Origin: Tubiluchus corallicola
Lineage: Eukaryota > Animalia > Priapulida
Reading direction: 5' to 3'
Length of the DNA: 24,645 bases
NCBI GenBank assembly: GCA_030141605.1
Contig: JAQGDQ010001810.1
Span: forward strand, 1 to 24,645
The notes below the pieces were generated by a model. That model saw only the letters and a list, made by a program, of their open reading frames with translations. It was not told where the DNA came from and did no database searches. Of this stretch, positions 1 to 24,645 are shown one piece after another. A program made the position numbers and the translations under genes. Position 1 is the stretch's first letter, and each line of letters opens with the position of its first letter.

Positions 1-755
1 GTTAGTAGCTACTTTTGCAAAAATGATTTCGGTTTTGTTTCGATATCAGTTTCCTATGTTTCAAATTTTGGTTTCGGTTTGTAATTTCAGTTTCGGTAAC
101 ATCGCTGATATTTGTTATCAATGCACTGAGGAATTAACGTTCAACCATCTTTTCATTGGCGAATTTTGTCAGCCATGTTGTCAAGCTGCTAACTGTTGTG
201 TAGTAGCAAGTATTGCAGGTTGTTACAAGACAGATGTCATAAGAAACTATTTCTACACTATCTAAAACCAATTCAGTTTTCAAAATATCATATTTTTTGT
301 GGATTTTAAGACATAAGCACGGGCCGTAGAATATGAAATTTATACCCTTCAAGGTGTGAACATTTGACTTTTATGAAACTTCCCATGAAAGCAGACCAGT
401 GCATACGTGTGCAGCACATTAAGTAGTGAGACAATCTACTTCAAAAATGTTGCTCTCAAATTATCGAAATTTTGTCAATGAATGTTTGAACTACTTGAGT
501 TTTTGGTTTGCTTCTAAGCCTACTCTTAGCAAATAATGTAGATGTATGCTGTAGTGATTATACAGGAGCTGTTTTTATGTTTTAAAACGAGTTATCAGAT
601 ATAAATTGTTGTGGTTGTTATTATATATTTTTTGATTTCTTTGTTCTGCTATTCTGTTTTTATTTAAGGTGGTTTAATGTGAATATCAAATTCAGGAAAA
701 CCTCATTTCATAGCCACAAACATTTTCCCTGTAATTACAATAGAATATTTACATA

Positions 756-1100
756 CAGTCGACCCTCGTTAAACCGGACCCCGCTAGCCCGGATATCGGA
801 TAAGATGGACGTCATGCGTGGTAAAGGAAACTGACCGATTTCTGTCTGAGCCCGAGCGCTGAACACAACACGGCCTACCGACTGTACAATAATTTCTTTA
901 TCCTCACAGTTTAACTATTTTAAAGTAATATACAGTATAGTATATAGTGCACAGTATATAGTGCAATGTATATAGGCCTTATTAAGGTGATTATTCCTGT
1001 ATAATATAGACCATATATAGTCATATCGGATAAATCGGACAATCGGCTAAACCGGACCAACCCCCCCCCCCCATTAGTACGGTTTAACAAGGGTTGACTG
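756..1100. mobile_element. pogo/Tigger-like (Tc1-mariner superfamily) MITE, 345 bp
   Basis: TIRs CAGTCGACCCTCGTTAAACCG ... CGGTTTAACAAGGGTTGACTG, TA on both sides (754-755, 1101-1102), subterminal AAACCGGAC/ATCGGATAA repeats, no transposase. Confidence 0.85.
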
Positions 1101-1356
1101 TACACTGGAAAAGATAGTAAATTCTTATTAATATGATGTGTGCTTGAATTAGACCTATGCAGACAAGGTACACATTGCCTTAAAAACAAAACGCCTTGAA
1201 TTTTACATTGTCCAGATACTTTGTACTTATAAATGTGAATCTAGATTCTTAAATGTAATACAAATCCTGTGCATCAATTTCAAAATCTCTTGTAGTTGAT
1301 TAAAGTCTTTTGCGACAATTGCATCTGTTAATTCTTGAGTCTGTTTGTTTTTTAAG

Positions 1357-1456
1357 ACGACTCTCATCACGCAGGAAATGATCCACGCCCTCTACAGTGA
1401 AAGTGTAGAAGCTCAACTTGACGCCACCCAAAAGTTTAGGAAATTGTTATCAAAAG
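1357..1456 (+). pseudogene. Duplicated, inverted copy of importin-alpha coding exon 2
   Basis: tttaag|ACGACTCTC...TCAAAAG|gtgagc encodes TTLITQEMIHALYSESVEAQLDATQKFRKLLSK and matches 6681-6780. No plus-strand exon 3 follows it. Confidence 0.85.
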
Positions 1457-1987
1457 GTGAGCAGAAATGGGACATTTACACTGTTGTTATATAGGCCATT
1501 GCAGTTTCTGGACCTTACAAGTAAAAGTCTCTATTGCATAAATTAGCTAAATGATTTTATGTTATTACAGAAGTTCATCAAAGATACTTTCAGAAATATA
1601 CAAGCCACAAACATGGCTAAACCTGGAATCACAACAAGCAAACAACTGAAACTGTAGTTTTAAGTAACACATGTAGTACTATCTTGCTAATAACTCATAA
1701 ATGGATGGGATCGGGAATTGGGCATGACTGGATATCAGGTTTATATAGACAGTAATAATCAGGATTGGGATCGGATCGGGATTTCCTGTGATTGACCATC
1801 CCTGGAGAAAATACGCAGTATAGCAAAAAAAACTGCCCAGAAACAAACAAAAAATCTACAATAATCATTTCCCTCTTATAATTTTAATTCTTTTCACTCT
1901 AATCTGTAATTTGCATCATTATTTAGACCAATTTAGATGAAGTTTATATGATCAAAGCAAGTTTGAAAGTCGTAAATGTTTGGATAG

Positions 1988-2383
1988 TTGTTGTTTGTAT
2001 TGATTACTTGTTTTGATGTTTATATTGATTACTTGTTTTGATGTTTGTATTGATAACTTGTTTTGATGTTTGTATTGATTACTTGTTTTGATGTTTATAT
2101 TGATTACTTGTTTTGATGTTTGTATTGATTACTTGTTTTGATGTTTGTATTGATTACTTGTTTTGATGTTTGTATTGATTACTTGTTTTGATGTTTATAT
2201 TGATTACTTGTTTTGATGTTTGTATTGATTACTTGTTTTGATGTTTATATTGATTACTTGTTTTGATGTTTGTATTGATTACTTGTTTTGATGTTTATAT
2301 TGATTACTTGTTTTGATGTTTGTATTGATTACTTGTTTTGATGTTTATATTGATTACTTGTTTTGATGTTTATATTGATTACT
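1988..2383 (+). repeat. 25-bp minisatellite (TGATTACTTGTTTTGATGTTTRTAT), about 16 copies
   Basis: Units start at 2001, 2026, 2051 and so on; inverted counterpart of 5383-6140. Confidence 0.95.
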
Positions 2384-3250
2384 CTTTTGGTCCGATCTAG
2401 TCTGTAATTTAGCTTATTGCTTACACTTTTTGTCCGATCTATTCAGTAATTTAGATTGTTGCTTACTGTTTTGGTCCGATCTAGTCTGTAATTTAGCTTA
2501 TTGCTTACACTTTTGGTCCGATCTATTCAGTAATTTAGATTGTTGCTTACTCTTTTGGTCCGATCTAGTCTGTAATTTAGCTTGTTGCTTACACTTTTGG
2601 TCCAAGCTATTCTGTAATTTAGATTGTTGCTTACACTTTTGGTCCAAGCTATTCTGTAATTTAGATTATTGCTTACACTTTTGGTCCGATCTATTCAGTA
2701 ATTTAGATTGTTGCTTACTCTTTTGGTCCAAGCTATTCTGTAATTTAGCTTATTGCTTACTCTTTTGGTCCAAGCTATTCTGTAATTTAGCTTATTGCTT
2801 ACACTTTTGGTCCGATCTATTCAGTAATTTAGATTGTTGCTTACTCTTTTGGTCCGATCTATTCTGTAATTTAGCTTATTGCTTACACTTTTGGTCCGAT
2901 CTATTCAGTAATTTAGATTGTTGCGTACTCTTTTGGTCCGATCTATTCAGTAATTTAGATTGTTGCTTACTCTTTTGGTCCGATCTATTCTGTAATTTAG
3001 CTTATTGCTTACACTTTTGGTCCGATCTATTCAGTAATTTAGATTGTTGCGTACTCTTTTGGTCCAATCTATTCAGTAATTTAGATTGTTGCTTACTCTT
3101 TTGGACCGAGCTATTCTGTAATTTAGCTTATTGCTTACACTTTTGGTCCGATCTATTCTGTAATTTAGCTTATTGCTTACACTTTTGGTCCAAGCTATTC
3201 CGCAAATCAGCTTGTTGCTTACTCTTTTGGTCCAAGCTATTCAGTAACTT
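2379..3250. repeat. 42-bp minisatellite (GCTTACACTTTTGGTCCGATCTATTCAGTAATTTAGATTGTT), about 20 copies, in the intron after importin exon 5
   Basis: Direct tandem units; the 14-aa periodicity of ORF 2430..3257 reflects the 42-bp period. Confidence 0.95.
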
Positions 3251-3314
3251 AACTTAACAGTTAATCATTATAAATGAATAATTTTGAAAGATAAGAAGAA
3301 CTAATTAAAATTAC

Positions 3315-3414
3315 CTTCTGAAATTCGGGAGGCGGATTTTTTCCCCGGCATAGATTTGATAAAGCCCACACAGCATTCCGAGTCATAGATAACCTATTTG
3401 ACTTACTTAGCAAT
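3315..3414 (-). CDS. KPNA: Importin-alpha coding exon 5 (ARM repeat)
   Basis: ttccag|A TTG CTA...CAG AAG|gtaatt encodes (Q)[33 protein letters not shown]. Its 1-nt start completes the phase-2 end of exon 4. Absent from the ORF track. Confidence 0.95.
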
Positions 3415-3599
3415 CTGGAAGGAATAAATAAATAAACAATCAGTCAGTACAAAGAGTTTTTCTGTAATCTGCTTAGACATCTTCTTGCAAGGTGCAAGAC
3501 AAAATGTTCTTGTTGTTGTTTTATGCTTTTACATTTATTTACACACAAAATCATTTTTAAATGTAAAGCTACGTAAACAGAAAGCAAAGCAGCTCTTAC

Positions 3600-3688
3600 T
3601 GTAATAGTGGAACCAGAATTCCTTCATTAAGAACATAGTCTCTACATTCTGGACTGTCTCCTGCAATATTGCCTAATGCCCAAACAGC
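3600..3688 (-). CDS. KPNA: Importin-alpha coding exon 4 (ARM repeat)
   Basis: ttttcag|GCTGTTTGG...TTA CA|gtaaga encodes [29 protein letters not shown](Q), containing the WxxxN NLS-binding motif. Confidence 0.96.
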
Positions 3689-4609
3689 CTGAAAAGTTAA
3701 AACAAACAGAATTAAAGAGTTTAATCCAAAAAATGAAAAGAAAGATGCAACAGACAATTGATTCATTACGATAAGTTCAAACAAGTAAGATAAACACGGA
3801 CATGTTATACAGGTTGCAAGCATAAAGGAAAGTAGTGTTACGTCAGAGTGAAATTCTACAACAAAACTGTAGTACGTACTAAGATTGAGACCGTTTAAAC
3901 TTTTAACCAACCGCTAACTGGTGTAACTGTTTAGAAAATTATTAACGGTTTAACCATGACTTTCCTTTACATGTAACACATTACACAATTTTTTCAGAAA
4001 CAAATCCCATCACACACGCAGAAAGTCACTGATGATAAGCTGTCTCAAGACTTCAATCATACCAATAGAGTACATACGTAACCTATACTAAACACACTAT
4101 TTGCTCACCAGGTGCATGGGTGGAACATCCTATAACATCGAACATCTTGAGGGAAATATTTGGACACTCGGTATCATAGCAACGAGGCTTTTACGAAAGA
4201 AATTTATTGTATCATTGCATTACTGAAAACAACGCGTAGAGTCGTGGACCTGTAACAACACTAACCCAAGGTACTTTATTGTTCCTTGTGCATTTGATAT
4301 TCAGAGTTTGCGCACGTGGCGATTCCAACATGGCAGACTCTGAAGGCATGGGTCGTGTGAGTAAACATTGCATGATTCAGAGTGGGTAACTGTGTCACAG
4401 ATATTTCTTTATAAGTTGAAAAATGTTGTTCAAAACTGCTTCAAACATTCAAAAGGTTTCATAATTTGTTCATGTTCTAAAGACATACTAAGCTGAGTGA
4501 ATTTCTCTGCTTACATAATTAGATTAGAGTTAGGCAATTTCTTCATATTAGTTGGTCATGTATATTCGATATGTTATCATATGTATGAAGTCATTGGAAA
4601 CAGCTAAAC

Positions 4610-5034
4610 CAGGGGTGTGCAAATTACCTGACTAGCCGGGCCACATTAAACATTCCCGCAATTCCTGTGGGCCACATGCAGTTTGGTCAAGGAGCCAAGT
4701 ACAGTAGGACCTAATAACGATTTTTTTTTTGCATCCGACCTGCGTACATCATTACTACTACACTCAAGAAACTATTTTAGAAGTTATTAAAATTTATATT
4801 AAAAACCATATATTTCATCATGTTGGACAGTGACATTAAGTGACAACGGTCTTATAAGGGTTAATGCCATCCGATTTAGAGGACAAAACTACCCGCACTA
4901 TCTTTGCGATATTGGTGCAGACTTCAGCTGGATTGTGTGGGCTGCACATTCATTACGTTGACAAACCTCTTCGTGGGGCCGCACAAGATTTCTCGACGGG
5001 GCGCAAGGGGCACCCTGAACAGTTTGCACACCCG
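4610..5034. mobile_element. hAT (Buster/Charlie-like) non-autonomous element, 425 bp
   Basis: Termini CAGGGGTGTGCAAA ... TTTGCACACCCG (right end slightly eroded), perfect 8-bp TSD AGCTAAAC (4602-4609, 5035-5042) with central TA, internal GGGCCACA/GGGCCGCA motifs. Confidence 0.8.
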
Positions 5035-5155
5035 AGCTAAACAGTTAACCGACAGCAATTAATGACATTTAGCCGGTTAGTTAAAAAGCCTAACTATCTC
5101 AGCATTAATTTGCACATAGACGCACCGAAAGTAAAAATATGTAAAATAAACTTAC

Positions 5156-5379
5156 CTGTTCTTGAACATCTTCAAAATCTGATGCTAGCAACCGGATGAA
5201 GATCGGTACGGCACCGGCTTCTATGACGACGCGAGTTTGTAAACTTGTTCCGGATGCGATATTTGTTAGTGCCCAGGCGGCTTCGAATTGTAGCGTGCAG
5301 TTGCTGTCATGTTGAAGAAACTCCACAAACCGAGGAACAATCCCTGTTTGTATGACTTCATCAATTGGAGGATTTGGCT
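5156..5379 (-). CDS. KPNA: Importin-alpha coding exon 3 (ARM repeats)
   Basis: tttacag|AG CCA AAT...GAA CAG|gtaagt encodes (E)[74 protein letters not shown], very close to the KPNA1/KPNA6-type sequence as I recall it. Confidence 0.97.
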
Positions 5380-5382
5380 CTG

Positions 5383-6140
5383 TAAACATCAAAACAAGTA
5401 ATCAATATAAACATCAAAACAAGTAATCAATATAAACATCAAAACAAGTAATCAATATAAACATCAAAACAAGTAATCAATATAAACATCAAAACAAGTA
5501 ATCAATATAAACATCAAAACAAGTAATCAATATAAACATCAAAACAAGTAATCAATATAAACATCAAAACAAGTAATCAATACAAACATCAAAACAAGTA
5601 ATCAATACAAACAACAAAACAAGTAATCAATATAAACATCAAAACAAGTAATCAATATAAACATCAAAACAAGTAATCAATACAAACATCAAAACAAGTA
5701 ATCAATATAAACATCAAAACAAGTAATCAATACAAACATCAAAACAAGTAATCAATATAAACATCAAAACAAGTAATCAATATAAACATCAAAACAACTA
5801 ATCAATATAAACATCAAAACAAGTAATCAATACAAACATCAAAACAAGTAATCAATATAAACATCAAAACAAGTAATCAATACAAACATCAAAACAAGTA
5901 ATCAATATAAACATCAAAACAAGTAATCAATATAAACATCAAAACAAGTAATCAATATAAACATCAAAACAAGTAATCAATACAAACATCAAAAGAAGTA
6001 ATCAATACAAACAACAAAACAAGTAATCAATATAAACATCAAAACAAGTAATCAATACAAACATCAAAACAAGTTATCAATACAAACATCAAAACAAGTA
6101 ATCAAGACAAACATCAAAACAAGTAATCAAGACAAACAAC
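5383..6140 (-). repeat. 25-bp minisatellite, about 30 copies, abutting the exon 3 splice acceptor
   Basis: (AAACATCAAAACAAGTAATCAATAY)n starts immediately next to the acceptor CAG at 5380-5382. Confidence 0.95.
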
Positions 6141-6680
6141 TATCCAAACATTTAAGACTTTCAAACTTGCTTTGATCATATAAACTTCATCTAAATTGGT
6201 CTAAATAATGATGCAAATTACAGATTAGAGTGAAAAGAATTAAAATTATAAGTGGGAAATGATTATTGTAGATTTTTTGTTTGTTTCTGGGCAGTTTTTT
6301 TTGCTATACTGCGTATTTTCTCCATTGATGGCCAATCACAGAAAATCCCGATCCGATCCCAATCCTGATTATTACTGTCTATATAAACCCGATATCCAGT
6401 CATGCCCAATTGCTGATTATTCCCGATCCTGTCCATTTATCAGTTATTAGCAAGATAGTACTACATGTGTTACTTAAAACTACAGTTTCAGTTGTTTGCT
6501 TGTTGTGATTCCAGGTTTAGCCATGTTTGTGGCTTGTATATTTCTGAAAGTATCTTTGATGAACTTCTGTAATAACATAAAATCATTTAGCTAATTTATG
6601 CAATAGAGACTTTTACTTGTAAGGTCCAGAAACTGCAATGGCCTATATAACAACAGTGTAAATGTCCCATTTCTGCTCAC

Positions 6681-6780
6681 CTTTTGATAACAATTTCCTA
6701 AACTTTTGGGTGGCGTCAAGTTGAGCTTCTACACTTTCACTGTAGAGGGCGTGGATCATTTCCTGCGTGATGAGAGTCGT
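6681..6780 (-). CDS. KPNA: Importin-alpha coding exon 2 (start of ARM1)
   Basis: 100-nt exon TTLITQEMIHALYSESVEAQLDATQKFRKLLSK+G with AG/GT boundaries; phase 0 in, phase 1 out, joining exon 3 as LLSKEPNPP. Absent from the ORF track. Confidence 0.95.
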
Positions 6781-7036
6781 CTTAAAAAACAAACAGACTC
6801 AAGAATTAACAGATGCAATTGTCGCAAAAGACTTTAATCAACTACAAGAGATTTTGAAATTGATGCACAGGATTTGTATTACATTTAAGAATCTAGATTC
6901 ACATTTATAAGTACAAAGTATCTGGACAATGCAAAATTCAAGGCGTTTTGTTTTTAAGGCAATGTGTACCTTGTCTGCATAGGTCTAATTCAAGCACACA
7001 TCATATTAATAAGAATTTACTATCTTTTCCAGTGTA

Positions 7037-7381
7037 CAGTCAACCCTTGTTAAACCGTACTAATGGGGGGGGGGGGTTGGTCCGGTTTAGCCGATTGTCC
7101 GATTTATCCGATATGACTATATATGGTCTATATTATACAGGAATAATCACCTTAATAAGGCCTATATACATTGCACTATATACTGTGCACTATATACTAT
7201 ACTGTATATTACTTTAAAATAGTTAACCTGTGAGGATAAAGAAATTATTGTACAGTCGGTAGGCCGTGTTGTGTTCAGCGCTCGGGCTCAGACAGAAATC
7301 GGTCAGTTTCCTTTACCACGCATGACGTCCATCTTATCCGATATCCGGGCTAGCGGGGTCCGGTTTAACGAGGGTCGACTG
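7037..7381. mobile_element. pogo/Tigger-like MITE (mirror of 756-1100)
   Basis: Same TIRs and TA TSD with the same flanks, so the insertion predates the duplication. Confidence 0.85.
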
Positions 7382-8365
7382 TATGTAAATATTCTATTGT
7401 AATTACAGGGAAAATGTTTGTGGCTATGAAATGAGGTTTTCTTGAATTTCATATTCACATTAAACCACCTTAAATAAAAACAGAATAGCAGAACAAAGAA
7501 ATCAAAAAATATATAATAACAACCACAACAATTTATATCTGATAACTCGTTTTAAAACATAAAAACAGCTCCTGTATAATCACTACAGCATACATCTACA
7601 TTATTTGCTAAGAGTAGGCTTAGAAGCAAACCAAAAACTCAAGTAGTTCAAACATTCATTGACAAAATTTCGATAATTTGAGAGCAACATTTTTGAAGTA
7701 GATTGTCTCACTACTTAATGTGCTGCACACGTATGCACTGGTCTGCTTTCATGGGAAGTTTCATAAAAGTCAAATGTTCACACCTTGAAGGGTATAAATT
7801 TCATATTCTACGGCCCGTGCTTATGTCTTAAAATCCACAAAAAATATGATATTTTGAAAACTGAATTGGTTTTAGATAGTGTAGAAATAGTTTCTTATGA
7901 CATCTGTCTTGTAACAACCTGCAATACTTGCTACTACACAACAGTTAGCAGCTTGACAACATGGCTGACAAAATTCGCCAATGAAAAGATGGTTGAACGT
8001 TAATTCCTCAGTGCATTGATAACAAATATCAGCGATGTTACCGAAACTGAAATTACAAACCGAAACCAAAATTTGAAACATAGGAAACTGATATCGAAAC
8101 AAAACCGAAATCATTTTTGCAAAAGTAGCTACTAACAAAACTGAAAAAAATTCTGAAATAAATAAAATACTTTTGCTTTTGCTTGTTTCCTTATATTTGC
8201 TTTTAACTTGATGAAGTAGCTAAGAAAAAAACAACCAAAAAAGTAGAACAATGTTTATGGTTAAAGATGAAGCTTAAAAAAACTGACAAATTTTATTTTC
8301 TTCCTCACCCTCCAGGGGGGCCTCACGCCGAGGTAACATTTTTTTGCTTTATGCGAACATACTGC

Positions 8366-8974: not shown

Positions 8975-9250
8975 CGGTTGTATAATAGGCTGCTGTCCAA
9001 AATCATCCCCTTGCATGGTTGAACTAACTTCACCCTCGTCATCTTCGCCGGATGGTACCATCGAGTGCACCCGGCGTTTGAACAATTGTTCATCTCTTTT
9101 CTGTTTGCGAAGCTGGACTCCTTCTTCCTCACGACGGCGCCGCATTTCGTGAGCATCGAGGGCCTTGTGTTTGTACTGTCGGTAGCGTCCTGTGCTTGGA
9201 CTACCAGTCGATGACACAGTGGACATCGTGTCTTGGCCTTGTTCCTGCAT
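8975..9250 (-). CDS. KPNA: Importin-alpha first coding exon (IBB domain), alpha1/KPNA1-5-6 clade
   Basis: Encodes YKHKALDAHEMRRRREEEGVQLRKQKRDEQLFKRR (IBB with the autoinhibitory KRR). Acceptor ttcttag| at 9256 implies an upstream exon. Start codon is ATG 9250 or ATG 9226. Donor CCG|gtaagt. Confidence 0.95.
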
Positions 9251-9287: not shown

Positions 9288-9800
9288 CAGTGGGGGCTTG
9301 TGTATAGGCACTATGGAACAGCAGCACCCCAATTTTCACTTGATATTATTCAATATAATGAGTGTCTTTTCTTTAATTCTTCATTTATACTTATATTGCA
9401 CCAGATATACATGTTAGAACAGTGCACTTCAGCAATGTGGTGTATGGCTATTGTGCACATACGGCCATGTGCACATGTCTGAGATAAGATGCTACACTTT
9501 AGGTAGAGAGACAGCACTCTCGCTCATGCTGTATACATGTTTTGTCAGTTGGCTCATGCTTAAAAACCGTGTACTGACATATTCTCAAACTGCATCAATT
9601 TAGGCTGTCTGTAAACACTTTTTTGCTTAGCATGTTATCAAATTCATGTATAAATATTCATATGTTTGTTTGTTTAAAATTACAGTTACAATACTAACAA
9701 TATTAACATTACATTTGTTTCGTTTTATGCAATGTCAAAACAATGGCTAAAAATTTTCTGAAGCTCTGCCCAGACAAATTTTAGCTATGAGCTGCCACTG
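9288..9800. mobile_element. hAT-like MITE, 513 bp, about 30 bp upstream of the exon 1 acceptor
   Basis: Termini CAGTGGGGGCTTG ... ATGAGCTGCCACTG and a 7/8 TSD (CTAGACTA 9280-9287, TTAGACTA 9801-9808). Homologous pieces recur at 21764-22060 and 23226-23450. Confidence 0.75.
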
Positions 9801-12043: not shown

Positions 12044-12475
12044 TCATTTTTGTAAGCATATTTTTAAAGCAAACAGTGTTACTATGCTTAACAGTAGCAT
12101 TAAGGCAGTATTAGAACGTTCACCATTTCGCAACACATTTTGCGGTGGACGTTCGATAATGTAACCTTTACTTTTAAATTTTTTATAACATTTGTTGAAA
12201 ATTGAATTTCGTGCGTGGCAGCAATTCTTGTAAAACTCTGCTGCTTGGTACTTGTACGGACTGCTTTCCTTTTCTTGACTAGCACATTTGTAGCACATGT
12301 TCTTGATTGACAGAAAATTTTTCCGTCCATTATTGTCATTTGACTCATCGTTGGCACAATATCCAATGTCCTTTTTCACAGAATTTTTTGGAACTTTTCG
12401 CAAGCAAGCATATGACTCTCCAATCGTGTGAACCAACAGAAATAAAAACGTGCAGTTTGAAAAAGCATTCATCAT
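12044..12475 (-). CDS. Uncharacterised 143-aa Cys-rich protein with predicted signal peptide and C-terminal hydrophobic (TM or GPI-signal) tail
   Basis: ATG-initiated non-repetitive ORF, long for this AT content. Hydrophobic N-terminus (TFLFLLVHTIGESYA), C...CxxC...CC...C core, hydrophobic C-terminus (ALMLLLSIVTLFAL), AT-rich UTR-like sequence downstream. Confidence 0.7.
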   Translation of the reverse strand: MMNAFSNCTFLFLLVHTIGESYACLRKVPKNSVKKDIGYCANDESNDNNGRKNFLSIKNMCYKCASQEKESSPYKYQAAEFYKNCCHARNSIFNKCYKKFKSKGYIIERPPQNVLRNGERSNTALMLLLSIVTLFALKICLQK

Positions 12476-13231
12476 AATAGCATAATAGCACTAGTCACTC
12501 TGCAGTCAATTCAACAGCATTCGTCAGAAGCTGGTGGAACTCAAGTAAGTGAAATGCACGATAGCAGTCTATTCAACATGCAGTAGTTAAAGAATGGAGT
12601 TATAGAAGCCGATTATTAAAAGAAACATTTAACATAAAGTGCAAAATTGCTTCCTTACATTATAAAAGATAATTATTTTTGCTATTTCCCTCACTATAGT
12701 TTTAAAACATAGCTGCGCTAAATAGAATTTTTCATTTTCTATACACAACTCATTGCACCAGAAAAACACTATTTGCTCTGCGATGACGTAACAATTCATT
12801 GTGACATCATAATCGTCATTAATCGTTACCGCAGTTTTGCAGCCTGTAAAAATTATTGCCACGACGTTAACAAGGCTGACATAAGCATTTGCAAAACAAT
12901 TTTGCTTGCAGGTTAAACAGTAGAATATCATGGCCTACATGTGCTTAATTATCAATGTCTGAACCAGGAACGCAGAACGAGATCGGTTATTCTCTTTCTA
13001 TATTTTCAGCTAGCTCGGTCGTCGATGATGCGTGTATCATAACAATTATCATTATGGATTTACTCTCGAATATTAGTCATCACTGTATCAACATCGGGAA
13101 ATTTACTGTAGACCTGTTTCCTAGACAACACCATCTCACACGATCCTCATCTGAAACTCCCTTCCAAATAACCATACTTCTTTTATTTTCATAATAAGGA
13201 CTATGCAGTAAAATATGCCAAGTGGTAAGGA

Positions 13232-14676: not shown

Positions 14677-14879
14677 TAAATTATAAATCTCTTCTTGCAC
14701 GTGGCTTTAATAATTTTTTGAATGTGTTTTTAGAGACGATCTTGCTTCGCTTCCTCACCAAGCCACTTATCAGTATATGTATCAGTCTCTACACAAAAAT
14801 GTTTGAATATATATACTGATAATGCCATTTTTGCGTTTCTTGTTCATGGAATATCAGTATTTGGTTAGAGAAATTTATT

Positions 14880-15320
14880 TTAAAATTCTGTGGGAGCCCC
14901 GCATAAGACAGGATTCTATCCGCACATTAGAGAAAATTCAACAAAGAATGACCAGATTTATTCCAGGGTTGAGTAACTTAACTTATTCACAAAGATTTCA
15001 AGAAGTTGATCTACCCACACTTAAGTATAGGCGCACGAGACAGTGCATGAAATAAACTTTTAGTGTTCTCCATGGTAGTGACAAAAACTTGCATGGATGA
15101 TAATGATACAAGATGTCAACAACAATAGATAAGAGGACATTCATATGTACAAACTACACAAGCATCTTATCCAAAGCAGTTAGTCAAAACGAGAGCAAAC
15201 GATTTTCATTCAGAGTTGTCGATCCATGGAACAGGCTTCAAGCAAATGTAGTTGAAGCATTGAGCAACTAAAGGGCATGTCTTGATAAGCATTGTCAGCA
15301 GTATCCATCACAATTTATAA
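14880..15320 (+). mobile_element. CR1-clade LINE 3' fragment (degenerate ORF2 C-terminus)
   Basis: WEPRIRQDSIRTLEKIQQRMTRFIPGLSNLTYSQRFQEVDLPTLKYRR, then RGHS and FSFRVVDPWNRLQANVVEA...LDKH with stops and frameshifts; typical CR1 post-RT motifs. Confidence 0.85.
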
Positions 15321-18211: not shown

Positions 18212-20334
18212 TCTACTATTATATTAATATTCTTGGTATATATATATATTTATTTATTTATATATATATAAGATTCGAGGCTACAGCTTCGACGAGGGCA
18301 CCATTTGCGGCGATCTATATATCAAACGAAAGGTCTCGATCTAGTGTCGTCTCATTGATGGTTTATTTTTCGAATGGGGCCCACCGGGAGGAAGGGGGGG
18401 CGAAAAACCTCCAAAAATGGCCATTTTTCGGCCGTTTTTTGCAAAAGTTATACGGCTGAGATGTAGAGAACGGGAACGGGCCGAGGGTGGTGCTGGGTAT
18501 GGATAGATAGCCCGTTCAGCGGTGGGTGTCATAGGCCTATTTAGAATTCCCGAGAGGGCCACGGCGTCCCGCAACGGGCGTTTTCCCGGACCCAACTCGC
18601 GATTTTTTCGAAATTTTGACCAAACAGCATGCGGGAAAAACGTTCTAGCGGCGCCTGGTGGGACTCTCGGAAGGAGATATATAGCTCTTTACAAAGAGGA
18701 AGGACAGGGCTACACGATGATGTGGGATATATTTTAGGGCAGGTCCACCGAGAGGAGTATCAACGAGTTAGTTAGGAGTTCTATTTTCGGCAATTTTCAC
18801 TTAGAAAATTGCTGACGCAAAGGCATTGTTGTGACGTCATCCATTGTACTCTGTCTATAATCTTATAACTTTAATTCAGCAAAAAGCTACAGGCTTTGCG
18901 TTAGTTAGACAAACGGCAGGCACGATGTTAAGGGCTTTGTGTTATAAATGAGGACTAGGTAGGATGTTCGCGTATTATTGATTACGCGTGGTTTTTTACG
19001 CAAAATCTTTTGCGGGGCCTTTGTTATTTATTATATTATAGCACATAGTTTCAACTTTGTGAAAAATGTTTGGAATGGTTTTGTTGTAATGCTGTGTTGT
19101 TGGTGCTTGTGCTATAGGTGTCATCATCATTGCCACCATCATCATCATGATCACCACGTGAGGTGGTGGATTTGATGTGGTGTGGTGGTGGTGTGTTTTG
19201 TGTGTTGTGCTATGGATGGTGTGGTGGGGTGATAGGGTGTGTGGGGTGTGGTGTGGGTAGTGTGGTATGGAGTGGGTGGCGTGGTGTGTGGGTGGGTGGG
19301 TGTTGTGGTGCAGTGTGGTGTTATGGTGTGGTGCAGTGTGGTGTGATGTGGTGGAGTATTATGGTGTGGGTGGTGTGGTGTGGGTGGTGAGGTGTGGTGG
19401 TATGGTGTGGTGCAGTGTGGTGTGATGTGGTGGAGTCGTATGGTGTGGTGTGGTGTGTGGGTGGTGCGGTGTGCTGCAGTGGTATGGTGTTGTGCGGTGT
19501 GGTGTGATGTGGTGGAGTGGTATGGTGTGGGTGGTGTGGTGTGTAGGTGGGTGGGTGGTGTGGTGCAGTGTGGTGTTATGGTGTGGTGCTGTGCAGTGTG
19601 ATGTGGTGGAGTCGTATGGTGTGGGTGGTGTGGTGTGGTGTGTGGGTGGTGCGGTGTGTGCTGTGGTATGGTGTGGTGCAGTGTGGTGTGATGTGGTGGA
19701 GTGGTATGGTGTGGGTGGTGTGGTGTGTAGGTGGTATGGTGTGGTGCGGTGCGGTGTGGTGGTATTGTGTGGTGCAGTGTGGTGTTATGGTGTGGTGCAG
19801 TGTGGTGTGATGTGGTGGAGTATTATGGTGGGGGTGGTGTAGTGTGTGGGTGGTGCGGTGTGGTGTGGTGCAGTGGTATGGTGTGGTGTGGTGCAGTGTG
19901 GTGTGATGTGGTGGAGTCGTATGGTGTGGGTGGTGTGATGTGGTGTGTGGGTGGTGCGGTGTGCTGCAGTGGTATGGTGTGGTGCGGTGTGGTGTGATGT
20001 GGTGGAGTGGTATGGTGTGGGTGGTGTGGTGTGTAGGTGGGTGGGTGGTGTGGTGCAGTGTGGTGTTATGGTGTGGTGCTGTGCGGTGTGATGTGGTGGA
20101 GTATTATGGTGTGGGTGGTGCAATGGTATGGTGTGGTGCAGTGTGGTGTGATGTGGTGGAGTGGTATGGTGTGGGTGGTGTGGTGTGTAGGTGGTATGGT
20201 GTGGTGCCGTGCGGTGTGGTGTGCGTGAGGTGGAGTGGTATGGTGTGGTGCAGTGTGGTGTGATGTGGTGGAGTGGTGTGGTGTGGGTTGTGTGTTGATT
20301 TGTGCACAAAATTCTTTTTGTGGGGTTTGGCTAG
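18212..20334 (+). mobile_element. Non-autonomous Helitron-like element, copy 1 (2.1 kb)
   Basis: 5' a|TCTACTATTATATTAATA; 3' hairpin CACAAAA-TTCT-TTTTGTG (20305-20322), 8-nt spacer, then CTAG|t; no TSD. Confidence 0.7.
19160..20295. repeat. GT-rich complex minisatellite inside the Helitron-like element
   Basis: Recurring GGTGTGGTGCAGTGTGGTGTGATGTGGTGGAGTGGTAT modules; strongly strand-asymmetric. Confidence 0.93.
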
Positions 20335-21270
20335 TCTCTTATATTAATATTCTTGGTATATATATATATTTATTTATTTATTTATATATATATAAGATTC
20401 GAGGCTACAGCCCGGACGAGGGCACCATTTGCGGCGATCTATATATCAAACGAAAGGTCTCGATCTAGTGTCGTGCCATTGATGGTTTATTTTTCGAATT
20501 GGGCCCACCGGGAGGAAGGGGGGGCGAAAAACCTCCAAAAATGGCCATTTTTCGGCCGTTTTTTGCAAAAGTTATACGGCTGAGATGTAGAGAACGGGAA
20601 CGGGCCGAGGGTGGTGCTGGGTATGGATAGATAGCCCGTTCAGCGGTGGGTGTAGTAGGCCTATTTAGAATTCGCGAGAGGGCCAGGGCGCCCCGCAACG
20701 GGCGTTTTCCCGGACCCAACTCGCGACTTTTTCGAAATTTTGACCAAACAGCCTGTGGAAAAAACGTTCTAGCGTCGCCCGGTGGGACTCTCGGAAGGAG
20801 ATATATAGCTCTTTACAAAGAGGAAGAACAGGGCTACACGATGATGTGGGCTATATGTTAGGGCAGGTCCACCGAGAGGAGTATTGGCGAGTTAATTGGG
20901 AGTTCCATTTTCGGCAATTTTCGCTTAGAAAACTGTTGACGCAAAGGCATTGTTGTGACGTCATCCATTGTATTCTGTCTATAATCTTATAGCTTTAATT
21001 CAGCAAAAAGCTGCCTGCTACGGGTTTGCGTTAGTTAAACAAACAGTAGGCATGATGTTACGGGCTTTGCGTTATACATGAGGACTAGGTAGGATGTTCG
21101 CGTATTATTGATTACACGTGTATTTATACGCAAAATCTTTTGCGGGGCGTTTGCTATTTATTATATTATAGCACATAGTTTCAACTTTGTGAAAAATGTT
21201 TGGAATGGTTTTGTTGTAATGCTGTGCTGTTGGTGCTTGTGCTATAGGTGTCGTCATCGTTGCCACCACA
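20335..21270 (+). mobile_element. Helitron-like element, copy 2, head-to-tail with copy 1; 3' end not located
   Basis: Starts TCTCTTATATTAATATTCTTGG immediately after the CTAG of copy 1. About 930 bp direct repeat of 18212-19140 with scattered substitutions, diverging where the GT array would begin. Confidence 0.7.
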
Positions 21271-21763: not shown

Positions 21764-22060
21764 CAATGGCAGCTCATGTATAGGCACTGTGGAACTGCAG
21801 CGCCACCTATTTTCATTTGATATTATCGATAACATTCAATATAATGAGTCTTTTTTTCTTTATACTTGGAACATTATATAATCCTTAAGCTTAATGTCAG
21901 TAGCCATTCTCTAGTTCATAGAAAAATTACAAAAATCATTTTATTCTCAGTTCCAATGATGCGGTGATTGGCTGTTGTGCGCATGCGGCCATGACCACAT
22001 GTCTGACGTAAGAAGCTGCACGATAAATATATATAGAGAGAGTGCTTTGTCGCTCACATA
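21764..22060 (+). mobile_element. Left half of the hAT-like MITE family seen at 9288-9800
   Basis: Begins CAATGGCAGCTCATGTATAGGCAC; blocks align by eye with 9300-9390 and 9443-9527. Confidence 0.7.
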
Positions 22061-22063
22061 GTT

Positions 22064-22310
22064 AAAGTTGTGCAAGTGTAAGGTAAAGAGTTGTGCAAGT
22101 GTAAGGTAAAGTGTTGTGCAAGTGTAAGGTAGAGTTGTGCATGTGTAAGGTAAAGAGTTGTGCAAGTGTAAGGTAGAGTTGTGCAAGTGTAAGGTAAAGA
22201 GTTGTGCAAGTGTAAGGTAGAGTTGTGCAAGTGTAAGGTAGAGTTGTGCAAGTGTAAGGTAAAGAGTTGTGCAAGTGTAAGGTAGAGTTGTGCAAGTGTA
22301 AGGTAAAGAG
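22064..22310 (-). repeat. 21/23-bp minisatellite (GAGTTGTGCAAGTGTAAGGTA[AA]), about 11 copies
   Basis: Reverse complement of the array at 23538-24645. Confidence 0.93.
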
Positions 22311-23225: not shown

Positions 23226-23450
23226 CTGTGGCAGCTCATAGTTAAAATTACCGGGGGTGCTGCTTCAGATATTTTTTTGCCATTGTTTTAATATTGTTGA
23301 AAACGAAACAAACATACGTGATTTTAATGTTGTAATTGTAATTTTAAGCAAACAAACATACGAAAATTTATACACAAACTTGATAAAATTGTAGGCAGAA
23401 AATGATTTTCACTTACTGACAGCCTAAATTGTTACAGTTCGTGCTTGATC
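23226..23450 (-). mobile_element. Right half of the same hAT-like MITE family, inverted
   Basis: CTGTGGCAGCTCATAG...GACAGCCTAAATTG is a diverged reverse complement of 9590-9800. Confidence 0.72.
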
Positions 23451-23537
23451 CATTCGTTTTAAAACGAAATCCATTCCTCTTTTCTTACTTTGTGCAAAAA
23501 AGATTAATAATTTTCTCCTTGACCTCTGGATGACTGT

Positions 23538-24645
23538 TACCTTACACTTGCGCAACTCTTTACCTTACACTTGCACAACTCTTTAGCTTACACTTGCACA
23601 ACTCTTTACCTTACACTTGCACAACTCTACCTTACACTTGCACAACTCTACCTTACACTTGCACAACTCTTTACCTTACACTTGCGCAACTCTTTACCTT
23701 ACACTTGCACAACTCTTTAGCTTACACTTGCACAACTCTACCTTACACTTGCACAACTCTTTACCTTACACTTGCACAACTCCTTACCTTACACTTGCAC
23801 AACTCTTTACCTTACACTTGCGCAACTCTACCTTACACTTGCACAACTTTTTACCTTACACTTGCACAACTCTTTACCTTACACTTGGACAACTCTTTAC
23901 CTTACACTTGCCAACTTACCTTACACTTGCACAACTCTTTACCTTACACTTGCGCAACTCTACCTTACACTTGCACAACTTTTTTTTTTTGCACAACTTT
24001 ACCTTACACTTGCACAACTCTTTACCTTACACTTGCACAACTCTACCTTACACTTGCACAACTCTTTACCTTACACTTGCACAATTCTACCTTACACTTG
24101 CACAACTCTTTACCTTACACTTGCACAACTCTTTACCTTGCACTTGCACAACTCTACCTTACACTTGCACAACTCTTTACCTTACACTTGCGCAACTCTA
24201 CCTTACACTTGCACAACTTTACCTTACACTTGCACAACTCTTTACCTTACACTTGCACAACTCTACCTTACACTTGCACAACTCTTTACCTTACACTTGC
24301 ACAATTCTACCTTACACTTGCACAACTCTTTACCTTACACTTGCACAACTCTTTACCTTGCACTTGCACAACTCTACCTTACACTTGCACAACTCTTTAC
24401 CTTACACTTGCGCAACTCTACCTTACACTTGCACAACTTTACCTTACACTTGCACAACTCTTTACCTTACACTTGCACAACTCTACCTTACACTTGCACA
24501 ACTCTTTACCTTACACTTGCACAATTCTACCTTACACTTGCACAACTCTTTACCTTACACTTGCACAACTCTTTACCTTGCACTTGCACAACTCTACCTT
24601 ACACTTGCACAACTCTTTACCTTACACTTGCGCAACTCTACCTTA
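23538..24645 (+). repeat. 21/23-bp minisatellite (ACCTTACACTTGCACAACTCT[TT]), about 50 copies, with a 220-bp higher-order repeat; runs off the window end
   Basis: Diagnostic variants recur every 220 bp (ACAATTCTAC at 24081/24301/24521; CGCAACTCTA at 24191/24411/24631). Confidence 0.96.

What the first reader, a model, noticed from the sequence alone, without database searches (positions are those of the whole stretch)
1..8136. Importin-alpha gene folded back on itself: >=2.4-kb inverted duplication bracketing exons 3-5
Seen: an antisense copy of exon 2 and its flanking introns lies right after intron 5 begins, so a minus-strand transcript would carry a >=2.4-kb near-perfect stem with a ~3.4-kb loop containing exons 3-5 (224+89+100 = 413 nt). 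Established: long inverted intronic repeats promote back-splicing, ADAR editing and hairpin endo-siRNA production. Inference: the locus could yield a 413-nt circRNA, sequester exon 2, or make siRNAs against importin-alpha mRNA. Alternatively it is a second, convergent partial gene copy, or a haplotype misjoin in the assembly.
Basis: partly seen in the sequence, partly recalled or inferred. Interest (0 to 1): 0.8.

Follow-up and report, generated by a model that had tools for sequence, protein, structure and literature searches.

The report
Fold-back misjoin inside importin-alpha gene
The assembled sequence does show the first five exons of an importin-alpha gene turning back into a mirror copy of exon 2, but this is likely a fold-back artefact of sequencing or assembly, joined between two intronic minisatellites, and likely not a real RNA-hairpin device.

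Summary
The inverted repeat is in the assembly: 1-2383 against 5747-8136, 98.4% identical, around minus-strand importin-alpha exons 3-5 (413 nt). No exon 6 or later lies in the window. The turn is a 5-nt microhomology between the intron-2 25-mer and intron-5 42-mer minisatellites, and the left arm runs off base 1. Public contigs show two sequence types at this locus in one sample (X1, X2). At 26 of 26 listed single-copy sites the right arm equals one of them. Both arms switch between them, and 5 of 14 arm differences are X1/X2 differences, so the arms look like mosaic consensus copies of allelic DNA. A contig of that sample enters the 42-mer array from a flank absent from the window. The geometry fits inverted chimeras from amplification or long reads, but equally natural fold-backs. 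Nine arm differences stay unexplained, and no raw or long reads were available. Odds: artefact 0.67, real functionless rearrangement 0.25, working hairpin/circRNA locus 0.05. The scan noted similar fold-backs earlier in phage and fungal DNA.

The parts
8975..9250 (-). importin-alpha coding exon 1 (IBB domain), counted from the ATG; untranslated exons not examined
   Evidence: Pfam PF01749 E 7e-19; tblastn of P0001
6681..6780 (-). coding exon 2, 100 nt, in the right arm
5156..5379 (-). coding exon 3, 224 nt (ARM repeats)
   Evidence: Pfam PF00514 E 5e-22
3600..3688 (-). coding exon 4, 89 nt
3315..3414 (-). coding exon 5, 100 nt; last importin exon in the window
5747..8136 (.). right arm: native intron 1 part, exon 2, intron 2 part
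   Evidence: contigs of X1, X2 and X3 cross 8136 without a listed joint
1..2383 (.). left arm: mirror copy, runs off window base 1; likely artefactual
1357..1456 (+). exact plus-strand copy of exon 2 with its splice sites
2379..2383 (.). fold-back junction; 5-nt exact microhomology shared by the 25-nt and 42-nt units, inside a 10-of-11 match
1988..2383 (+). 25-nt minisatellite, 15.8 copies (mirror of part of the intron-2 array)
5383..6138 (-). 25-nt minisatellite, 30.2 copies, directly before the exon-3 acceptor
   Evidence: an X1 contig runs from this unit into exon 3 (table 7)
2373..3256 (+). 42-nt minisatellite, 21 copies, intron 5
2384..5382 (.). single-copy spacer (loop) holding exons 3-5
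7037..7381 (.). 345-nt high-copy element with CAGT...ACTG ends and TA flanks (Tc1/mariner-pogo-type MITE; label recalled), mirrored at 756-1100; absent from the X2 and X3 contigs

Best explanation
The mirror copy is likely a fold-back artefact: a single chimeric DNA molecule or read likely switched from the intron-5 42-mer array onto the opposite strand of the intron-2 25-mer array 3.0-3.75 kb behind it, and the assembler likely kept it as a contig end. Shown: the junction is a 5-nt microhomology between the two arrays, the gene stops after exon 5, and the arm runs off base 1. Inferred: polishing with reads of a heterozygous animal gave the two copies different mixtures of two alleles, which accounts for part of the 0.7% arm difference. 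Inferred: the real gene continues from the 42-mer array into a flank that is not in this window, and on to exon 6. The source of the chimera (strand-displacement amplification, a fold-back long read, or a path through a heterozygous inversion) is not determined.
For: (1) One search lists 40 of 53 variant rows; 26 lie in single-copy sequence, and I set aside 14 in or beside high-copy repeats. At 26 of 26 the right arm equals either the X1 or the X2 contig of sample S1, with no listed site where both differ from it. The right arm switches between them 5 times and the left arm 3 times in 1.8 kb. (2) 5 of 14 arm substitutions (6325, 6326, 6932, 7442, 7450) are X1/X2 differences with the matching letter; binomial P 7e-9, or 3e-5 with neighbours merged. 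(3) X2 and the separate sample X3 hold an allele without the 345-nt element and with shared other letters, so allelic divergence here (14 substitutions and 21 gap letters in one 776-nt X2 contig) exceeds arm divergence. (4) An X2 contig (depth 84.8) enters the 42-mer array, in the junction's register, from 88 letters whose listed 30 are not in the window; an X1 contig runs 25-mer into exon 3. (5) An intact 550-aa relative including exon 2 and all later exons exists (P0001). (6) Inverted, under 10 kb and short overlap is the main class of amplification chimera: 406 of 475 inverted, 337 of 406 under 10 kb, 2-21 nt overlap (PMC1855051, passages). Such chimeras enter assemblies as false inverted duplications (PMC6218980; 10.64898/2026.06.11.730069; passages).
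Against: (1) Nine arm substitutions (6155, 6253, 6332, 6342, 6390, 6430, 6431, 6441, 7227) and the 10-nt indel are not among the listed rows. X1, X2 and X4 contigs show no gap at the indel (X4 covers only its 6425 side). Thirteen rows were hidden and two of these sites may be among them, but a cluster of 4 substitutions plus the indel in 52 nt looks like a third real sequence. (2) Contigs are bubble-popped mosaics without phase beyond 31 nt, so left-arm letters in X1 or X2 could be a real second copy showing through. (3) Natural fold-backs have the same geometry: median spacer 3,428 bp, 2-8 bp microhomology (PMC3907307, passages). (4) Whether this DNA was amplified is not on record, and one study of amplified microscopic animals found 1 and 0 chimeric contigs in two assemblies (PMC11660948, passages). 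(5) The other flank of the 42-mer could belong to another locus or to an intact second allele. (6) That base 1 is a contig end is not shown; no genome was held. (7) S1 may be the source sample, so it is not independent.
Confidence: 0.67

Rival explanations
1. A real but functionless rearrangement carried by this animal, probably on one chromosome: a microhomology-mediated fold-back or inverted triplication, or one breakpoint of a 3-4 kb inversion between the two arrays. The copy shown is a dead allele (stop at codon 281 on intron-5 read-through); an intact allele or copy supplies the protein.
For: Geometry matches human inverted duplications with a single-copy spacer. Both arms share the same element insertion yet differ by a cluster not listed in any contig, as a third copy would. 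The junction sits in the best-matching register of the two units, as a template switch predicts.
Against: Copies made by a fold-back start identical, yet 5 of 14 differences are X1/X2 letters. At 17 of 26 sites the deep run X2 keeps the non-window letter although both arms or the right arm carry the window letter, which two copies against one would not favour (depth bias possible). No 42-mer-to-25-mer reciprocal joint is listed (weak). A simple fold-back would delete exon 6 onward of a conserved gene.
Confidence: 0.25
2. A real, transcribed intronic inverted duplication: the gene resumes left of the window, and the pre-mRNA folds into a stem of 2 kb or more that drives exon5-to-exon3 back-splicing, A-to-I editing, exon-2 skipping or siRNAs against importin-alpha.
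For: If transcribed the stem would form: the 260-nt exon-2 region alone pairs at -481 kcal/mol. Reverse complementary matches in flanking introns promote back-splicing (PMC8938519, PMC8330042; listing and abstract start). Young hairpin RNAs built from inverted exon fragments exist in Drosophila simulans (PMC10317233, passages).
Against: No exon 6 or later in the window. A different left continuation of the 42-mer array exists in the sample. Arm differences include allelic letters. Burying exon 2 with both splice sites would frameshift the mRNA (stop at codon 130). The 413-nt circle is not a multiple of three and has stops in all frames, which is neutral for a non-coding circle.
Confidence: 0.05

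Closest known systems
Inverted chimeras of multiple displacement amplification (PMC1855051; PMC9984789) and the false inverted duplications they leave in long-read assemblies (PMC6218980)
   Same: Inverted join, partners 3.0-3.75 kb apart (under 10 kb), 5-nt exact overlap (reported 2-21 nt; mostly 5-8 nt), distal sequence missing, arm running off the sequence.
   Different: Amplification of this sample is not on record. Arms differ by 0.7% rather than being identical, which needs polishing or two alleles. The reported distance peak is 250-300 nt, shorter than here.
Germline fold-back inverted duplications with a disomic spacer (PMC3907307)
   Same: Inverted duplication, single-copy spacer of about 3.4 kb, short inverted microhomology at the spacer edge.
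   Different: Those are pathological terminal-deletion chromosomes with 10 kb to 40 Mb duplications in the rows I saw; here neither copy number nor the far end is known.
Drosophila hairpin RNA loci, e.g. D. simulans hp58 and hp-ODox1 (PMC10317233)
   Same: An inverted copy of an exon of a protein-coding gene that would give antisense siRNAs.
   Different: hpRNAs are separate transcripts defined by Dcr-2-dependent siRNAs; here the mirror lies within the gene's own intron and no RNA evidence exists.
Importin-alpha of the alpha-5/6/7 group (KPNA1/5/6 in vertebrates; equivalence recalled)
   Same: IBB domain followed by ARM repeats; best named hit Priapulus caudatus importin alpha-7-like, 69% on exon 1.
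   Different: Only residues 1-263 of about 550 are encoded in the window.

Membership tests
Importin-alpha (karyopherin alpha) | N-terminal IBB domain | tested here: met
   PF01749 68.5 bits against cut-off 23.8 on exon 1
Importin-alpha (karyopherin alpha) | ARM repeats after the IBB | tested here: met
   PF00514 above cut-off on exons 3, 4 and 5
Importin-alpha (karyopherin alpha) | Complete ARM array and C-terminal part | tested here: not met
   No exon for P0001 residues after ~263 in the window; a statement about the window, not the animal
Importin alpha-5/6/7 group | Placement in that clade on a tree | not tested
   Most named hits among the 120 listed (of 479) are alpha-5, -6 or -7; no tree built
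Amplification or long-read inverted chimera | Inverted join under 10 kb with short overlap | tested here: met
   5-nt overlap, 3.0-3.75 kb; not specific to this class
Amplification or long-read inverted chimera | Junction absent from independent libraries | tested here: inconclusive
   No listed bridging contig in 4 runs; contigs show presence, not absence
Amplification or long-read inverted chimera | Sample was amplified or the junction rests on few reads | not testable with these tools
   Library not on record; no raw reads
Natural fold-back inverted duplication | Single-copy spacer with inverted microhomology | tested here: met
Natural fold-back inverted duplication | Raised copy number of arms over spacer | not testable with these tools
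   Contig depth is no copy number
Natural fold-back inverted duplication | Arms derive from one haplotype | tested here: inconclusive
   Both arms share the element insertion, but 5 of 14 differences are X1/X2 letters
Hairpin RNA or RCM-driven circRNA locus | Long inverted match within one predicted transcript | tested here: inconclusive
   Present in the assembly; existence in the genome and transcription not shown
Hairpin RNA or RCM-driven circRNA locus | Dicer-dependent 21-23-nt RNAs, back-splice reads or A-to-I clusters | not testable with these tools
   No RNA run could be laid

The most novel reading that the evidence does not exclude
A real, young allele in which a template switch between two intronic minisatellites turned a nuclear-import receptor gene into its own hairpin: it silences importin-alpha in trans through siRNAs from the exon-2 stem, or yields a truncated IBB-plus-ARM fragment, and segregates in a wild marine invertebrate. 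It would be a hairpin-RNA locus caught at birth outside flies, in a gene class linked to meiotic drive (link recalled).
Probability: 0.05. Interest if true: 0.7.

Novelty: not a real feature. Interest (0 to 1): 0.12.

Why it matters
If the best reading holds, it matters only as a warning: this assembly carries a broken, mirrored model of a housekeeping gene, and other inverted repeats near sequence ends in the same assembly should be checked against reads before they are read as biology. If the junction proves real and transcribed, it would be a directly testable case of a self-targeting hairpin born by minisatellite-guided template switching.

Tried and rejected
Whole genome: none held, so the arm's left end and exons 6 onward could not be traced. 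Junction test (2335-2465; 111 contigs laid, 31 records listed, 82 pieces not shown): no listed piece bridges 2379-2383. My sums of the depth table leave no room for one in X1, X3 or X4; X2 is unresolved (8 of 72 records shown). Not counted as evidence, because contig sets drop rare or short links between repeats. Depth as copy number (arm against loop, or array size): rejected, contig depth is flat and summed, and the unique loop was never laid. The very high 25-mer depth in X2 first looked like amplification bias; overlapping short contigs inflate it, so I dropped it. Unusual likeness of the 25-nt and 42-nt units: rejected, 1,305 of 5,000 shuffles score as high; only the junction's register is informative. 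A second fold-back at the right end (23-mer arrays 22066-22310 and 23537-24639): no shared inner flank and different unit order, rejected. Rfam: 0 matches in the window. Pfam on 8 suspected transposon frames: none above cut-off. Literature: a search for hairpin RNA, inverted duplication, endo-siRNA and importin (22 papers with 3 of 4 terms, 15 listed) showed no title or abstract start on an importin-alpha hairpin locus; a search for palindromic misassembly at contig ends gave 0. Supplements were not read. Earlier scan notes: none near this place, none by sequence. My notebook says 25 single-copy sites; the count is 26.
Full report
Observation. Bases 1-2383 are the reverse complement of 5747-8136 at 98.4%. 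The unique part (1-1987 against 6139-8136) differs by 14 substitutions and one 10-nt indel, 11 of the 15 within 1696-1972. The inner 400 nt are a 25-nt minisatellite, 15.8 copies on the left and 30.2 on the right. The left arm ends at the first base of the window. Its mirror point, 8136, lies in a high-copy repeat in intron 1 (table 2).

The gene. The minus strand holds coding exons at 9250-8975, 6780-6681, 5379-5156, 3688-3600 and 3414-3315, with canonical splice sites. They splice to 263 open codons, 256 of 262 identical to P0001, an unnamed full-length 550-aa importin-alpha. Pfam finds the IBB domain and ARM repeats. The best named relative is Priapulus caudatus importin alpha-7-like at 69% on exon 1, so the animal may be a priapulid; an unchecked scan note on another piece of this genome says the same. 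Exon 2 recurs exactly on the plus strand at 1357-1456. No exon 6 or later is in the window.

The junction. Intron 5 runs 58 nt of unique sequence, then a 21-copy 42-nt array (3256-2373), and then passes directly into the mirrored 25-nt array. The two periods overlap by 5 exact bases at 2379-2383, inside a 10-of-11 match, in the best-matching register of the two units. The units are no more alike than chance (1,305 of 5,000 shuffles reach the score). A 5-nt overlap is far too short for an overlap-based join (inference), so the turn probably existed in a physical molecule: a chimera, or the chromosome. The partner sites lie 3.0-3.75 kb apart, and about 21 by 30 unit pairs offer the same priming site.

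Public DNA. Six runs were listed; four hold part of the stretch (three of sample S1, one of S2), all as contigs, library type not on record. On the junction stretch, an X1 contig runs from the 25-mer into exon 3, the native join. An X2 contig of depth 84.8 enters the 42-mer array, in the junction's register, from 88 letters whose listed 30 have no match in the window. This is probably the real rest of intron 5, though another locus or an intact second allele would look the same. No listed contig bridges the window's junction; I give that no weight, since contigs show presence and not absence.

On the right arm (6140-8360; 40 of 53 variant rows shown; 14 rows in or beside high-copy repeats set aside), 26 single-copy sites separate X1 from X2. 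X2 and the other sample, X3, share a type that lacks the 345-nt element at 7037-7381 (clean empty site) and has many other letters. At 26 of 26 sites the right arm equals X1 or X2. It switches between them 5 times and the left arm 3 times. Five of the 14 arm substitutions fall on these sites with the matching letter (P 7e-9; 3e-5 with neighbours merged). One of the five, 6932, sits at a 4-nt X2 deletion and is alignment-dependent. A third, unrelated haplotype would be expected to carry letters absent from both runs (inference); none is listed for the right arm. So S1 behaves like the source animal or close kin and is not independent, and both arms look like consensus mosaics of its two alleles. 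Contigs of X1, X2 and X3 cross 8136 with no listed joint.

Against this reading: nine arm substitutions and the 10-nt indel are not among the listed rows, and a cluster at 6390-6441 looks like real divergent sequence. It lies in a stretch with extra repeat-family cover (tables 2 and 5), so mis-mapped polishing reads are possible, but so is a third copy. Contigs carry no phase beyond 31 nt, so left-arm letters in them may be a real duplicate. No raw reads, long reads or whole genome were available.

Mechanism. Most likely (0.67) a strand copying the gene was displaced in the 42-mer array, re-primed on the opposite strand of the 25-mer array and copied back through exon 2. An equivalent fold-back read, or a graph path through a heterozygous inversion, would look the same. 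The assembler then kept the mirror arm, and polishing gave the arms different allele mixtures. The junction anatomy is shown; the switch, its setting and the polishing are inferred. In amplified DNA 406 of 475 chimeras were inverted, 337 of those under 10 kb, with 2-21 nt overlaps (PMC1855051, passages); overlaps mostly 5-8 nt (PMC9984789, passages). Such chimeras gave false inverted duplications in a gorilla Y assembly (PMC6218980, passages) and thousands of misassemblies in single-cell assemblies (10.64898/2026.06.11.730069, passages), but almost none in two assemblies of amplified microscopic animals (PMC11660948, passages). Whether this sample was amplified is unknown.

Rivals. A real functionless rearrangement (0.25) has the same geometry: human fold-back duplications have a median spacer of 3,428 bp and 2-8 bp microhomology (PMC3907307, passages). 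An inverted triplication or one end of an inversion would also fit (PMC10766186, PMC13334657; search listing only). The copy shown would stop at codon 281 on intron-5 read-through. A working hairpin locus (0.05) is physically possible, since the exon-2 region pairs at -481 kcal/mol. Precedents exist for back-splicing driven by reverse complementary matches (PMC8938519, PMC8330042; listing and abstract start) and for hairpin RNAs from inverted exon fragments (PMC10317233, passages). But nothing shows that the gene resumes or that a transcript crosses the junction, and skipping exon 2 would stop the frame at codon 130. The remaining 0.03 is unassigned.

Novelty and verdict. The gene is an ordinary importin-alpha 5' half. 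The mirror structure is most likely not a feature of the animal, and each rival belongs to a known kind. One literature search listed no importin-alpha hairpin locus. The scan has met similar fold-backs in two phage windows and a fungal contig (unchecked notes, not support). Interest 0.12; 0.7 if the junction proves real and makes small RNAs.

Noticed in passing
window 7037-7381 (mirror 756-1100): A 345-nt high-copy element with TA flanks is a presence/absence polymorphism in intron 1: X1 has it, X2 and X3 contigs join 7032 to 7380 as a clean empty site.
   Followed up: partly
window 6140-8014: High allelic diversity: 26 listed single-base differences between X1 and X2 in about 1.5 kb of unique intron, plus 4-, 17- and 10-nt gaps; no listed difference falls inside exon 2.
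   Followed up: partly
window 22066-22310 and 23537-24639: Two arrays of one 21/23-nt minisatellite in opposite orientation, 1.2 kb apart; the second runs to the window's right end. No shared inner flank.
   Followed up: partly
window 18216-19138 and 20336-21268: A 930-nt GC-richer unit in two direct copies at 93.5%, separated by 1.1 kb of GTG-rich simple repeat; no Pfam or Rfam match.
   Followed up: partly
window 9288-9526 and 9588-9798 against 21764-22056 and 23228-23439: Sequence just upstream of the importin ATG has 73-77% copies 12-14 kb away, one direct and one inverted, on either side of the first 23-mer array; likely dispersed repeats.
   Followed up: no
window 4610-5033: About 420-nt element in intron 3 with 11-nt inverted ends (GGGTGTGCAAA ... 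TTTGCACACCC), likely a small non-autonomous DNA transposon.
   Followed up: partly
window 4080-4380: Intron 3 holds a short plus-strand ATG frame ending in a GTGAGT donor-like motif (4330-4364) and a minus-strand donor-like motif near 4110; could be chance or a nested first exon.
   Followed up: no
window 14807-15268 and 12047-12490: Broken frames that recall a LINE reverse-transcriptase tail and a cysteine-rich transposase tail (labels recalled); Pfam gave nothing above cut-off.
   Followed up: partly
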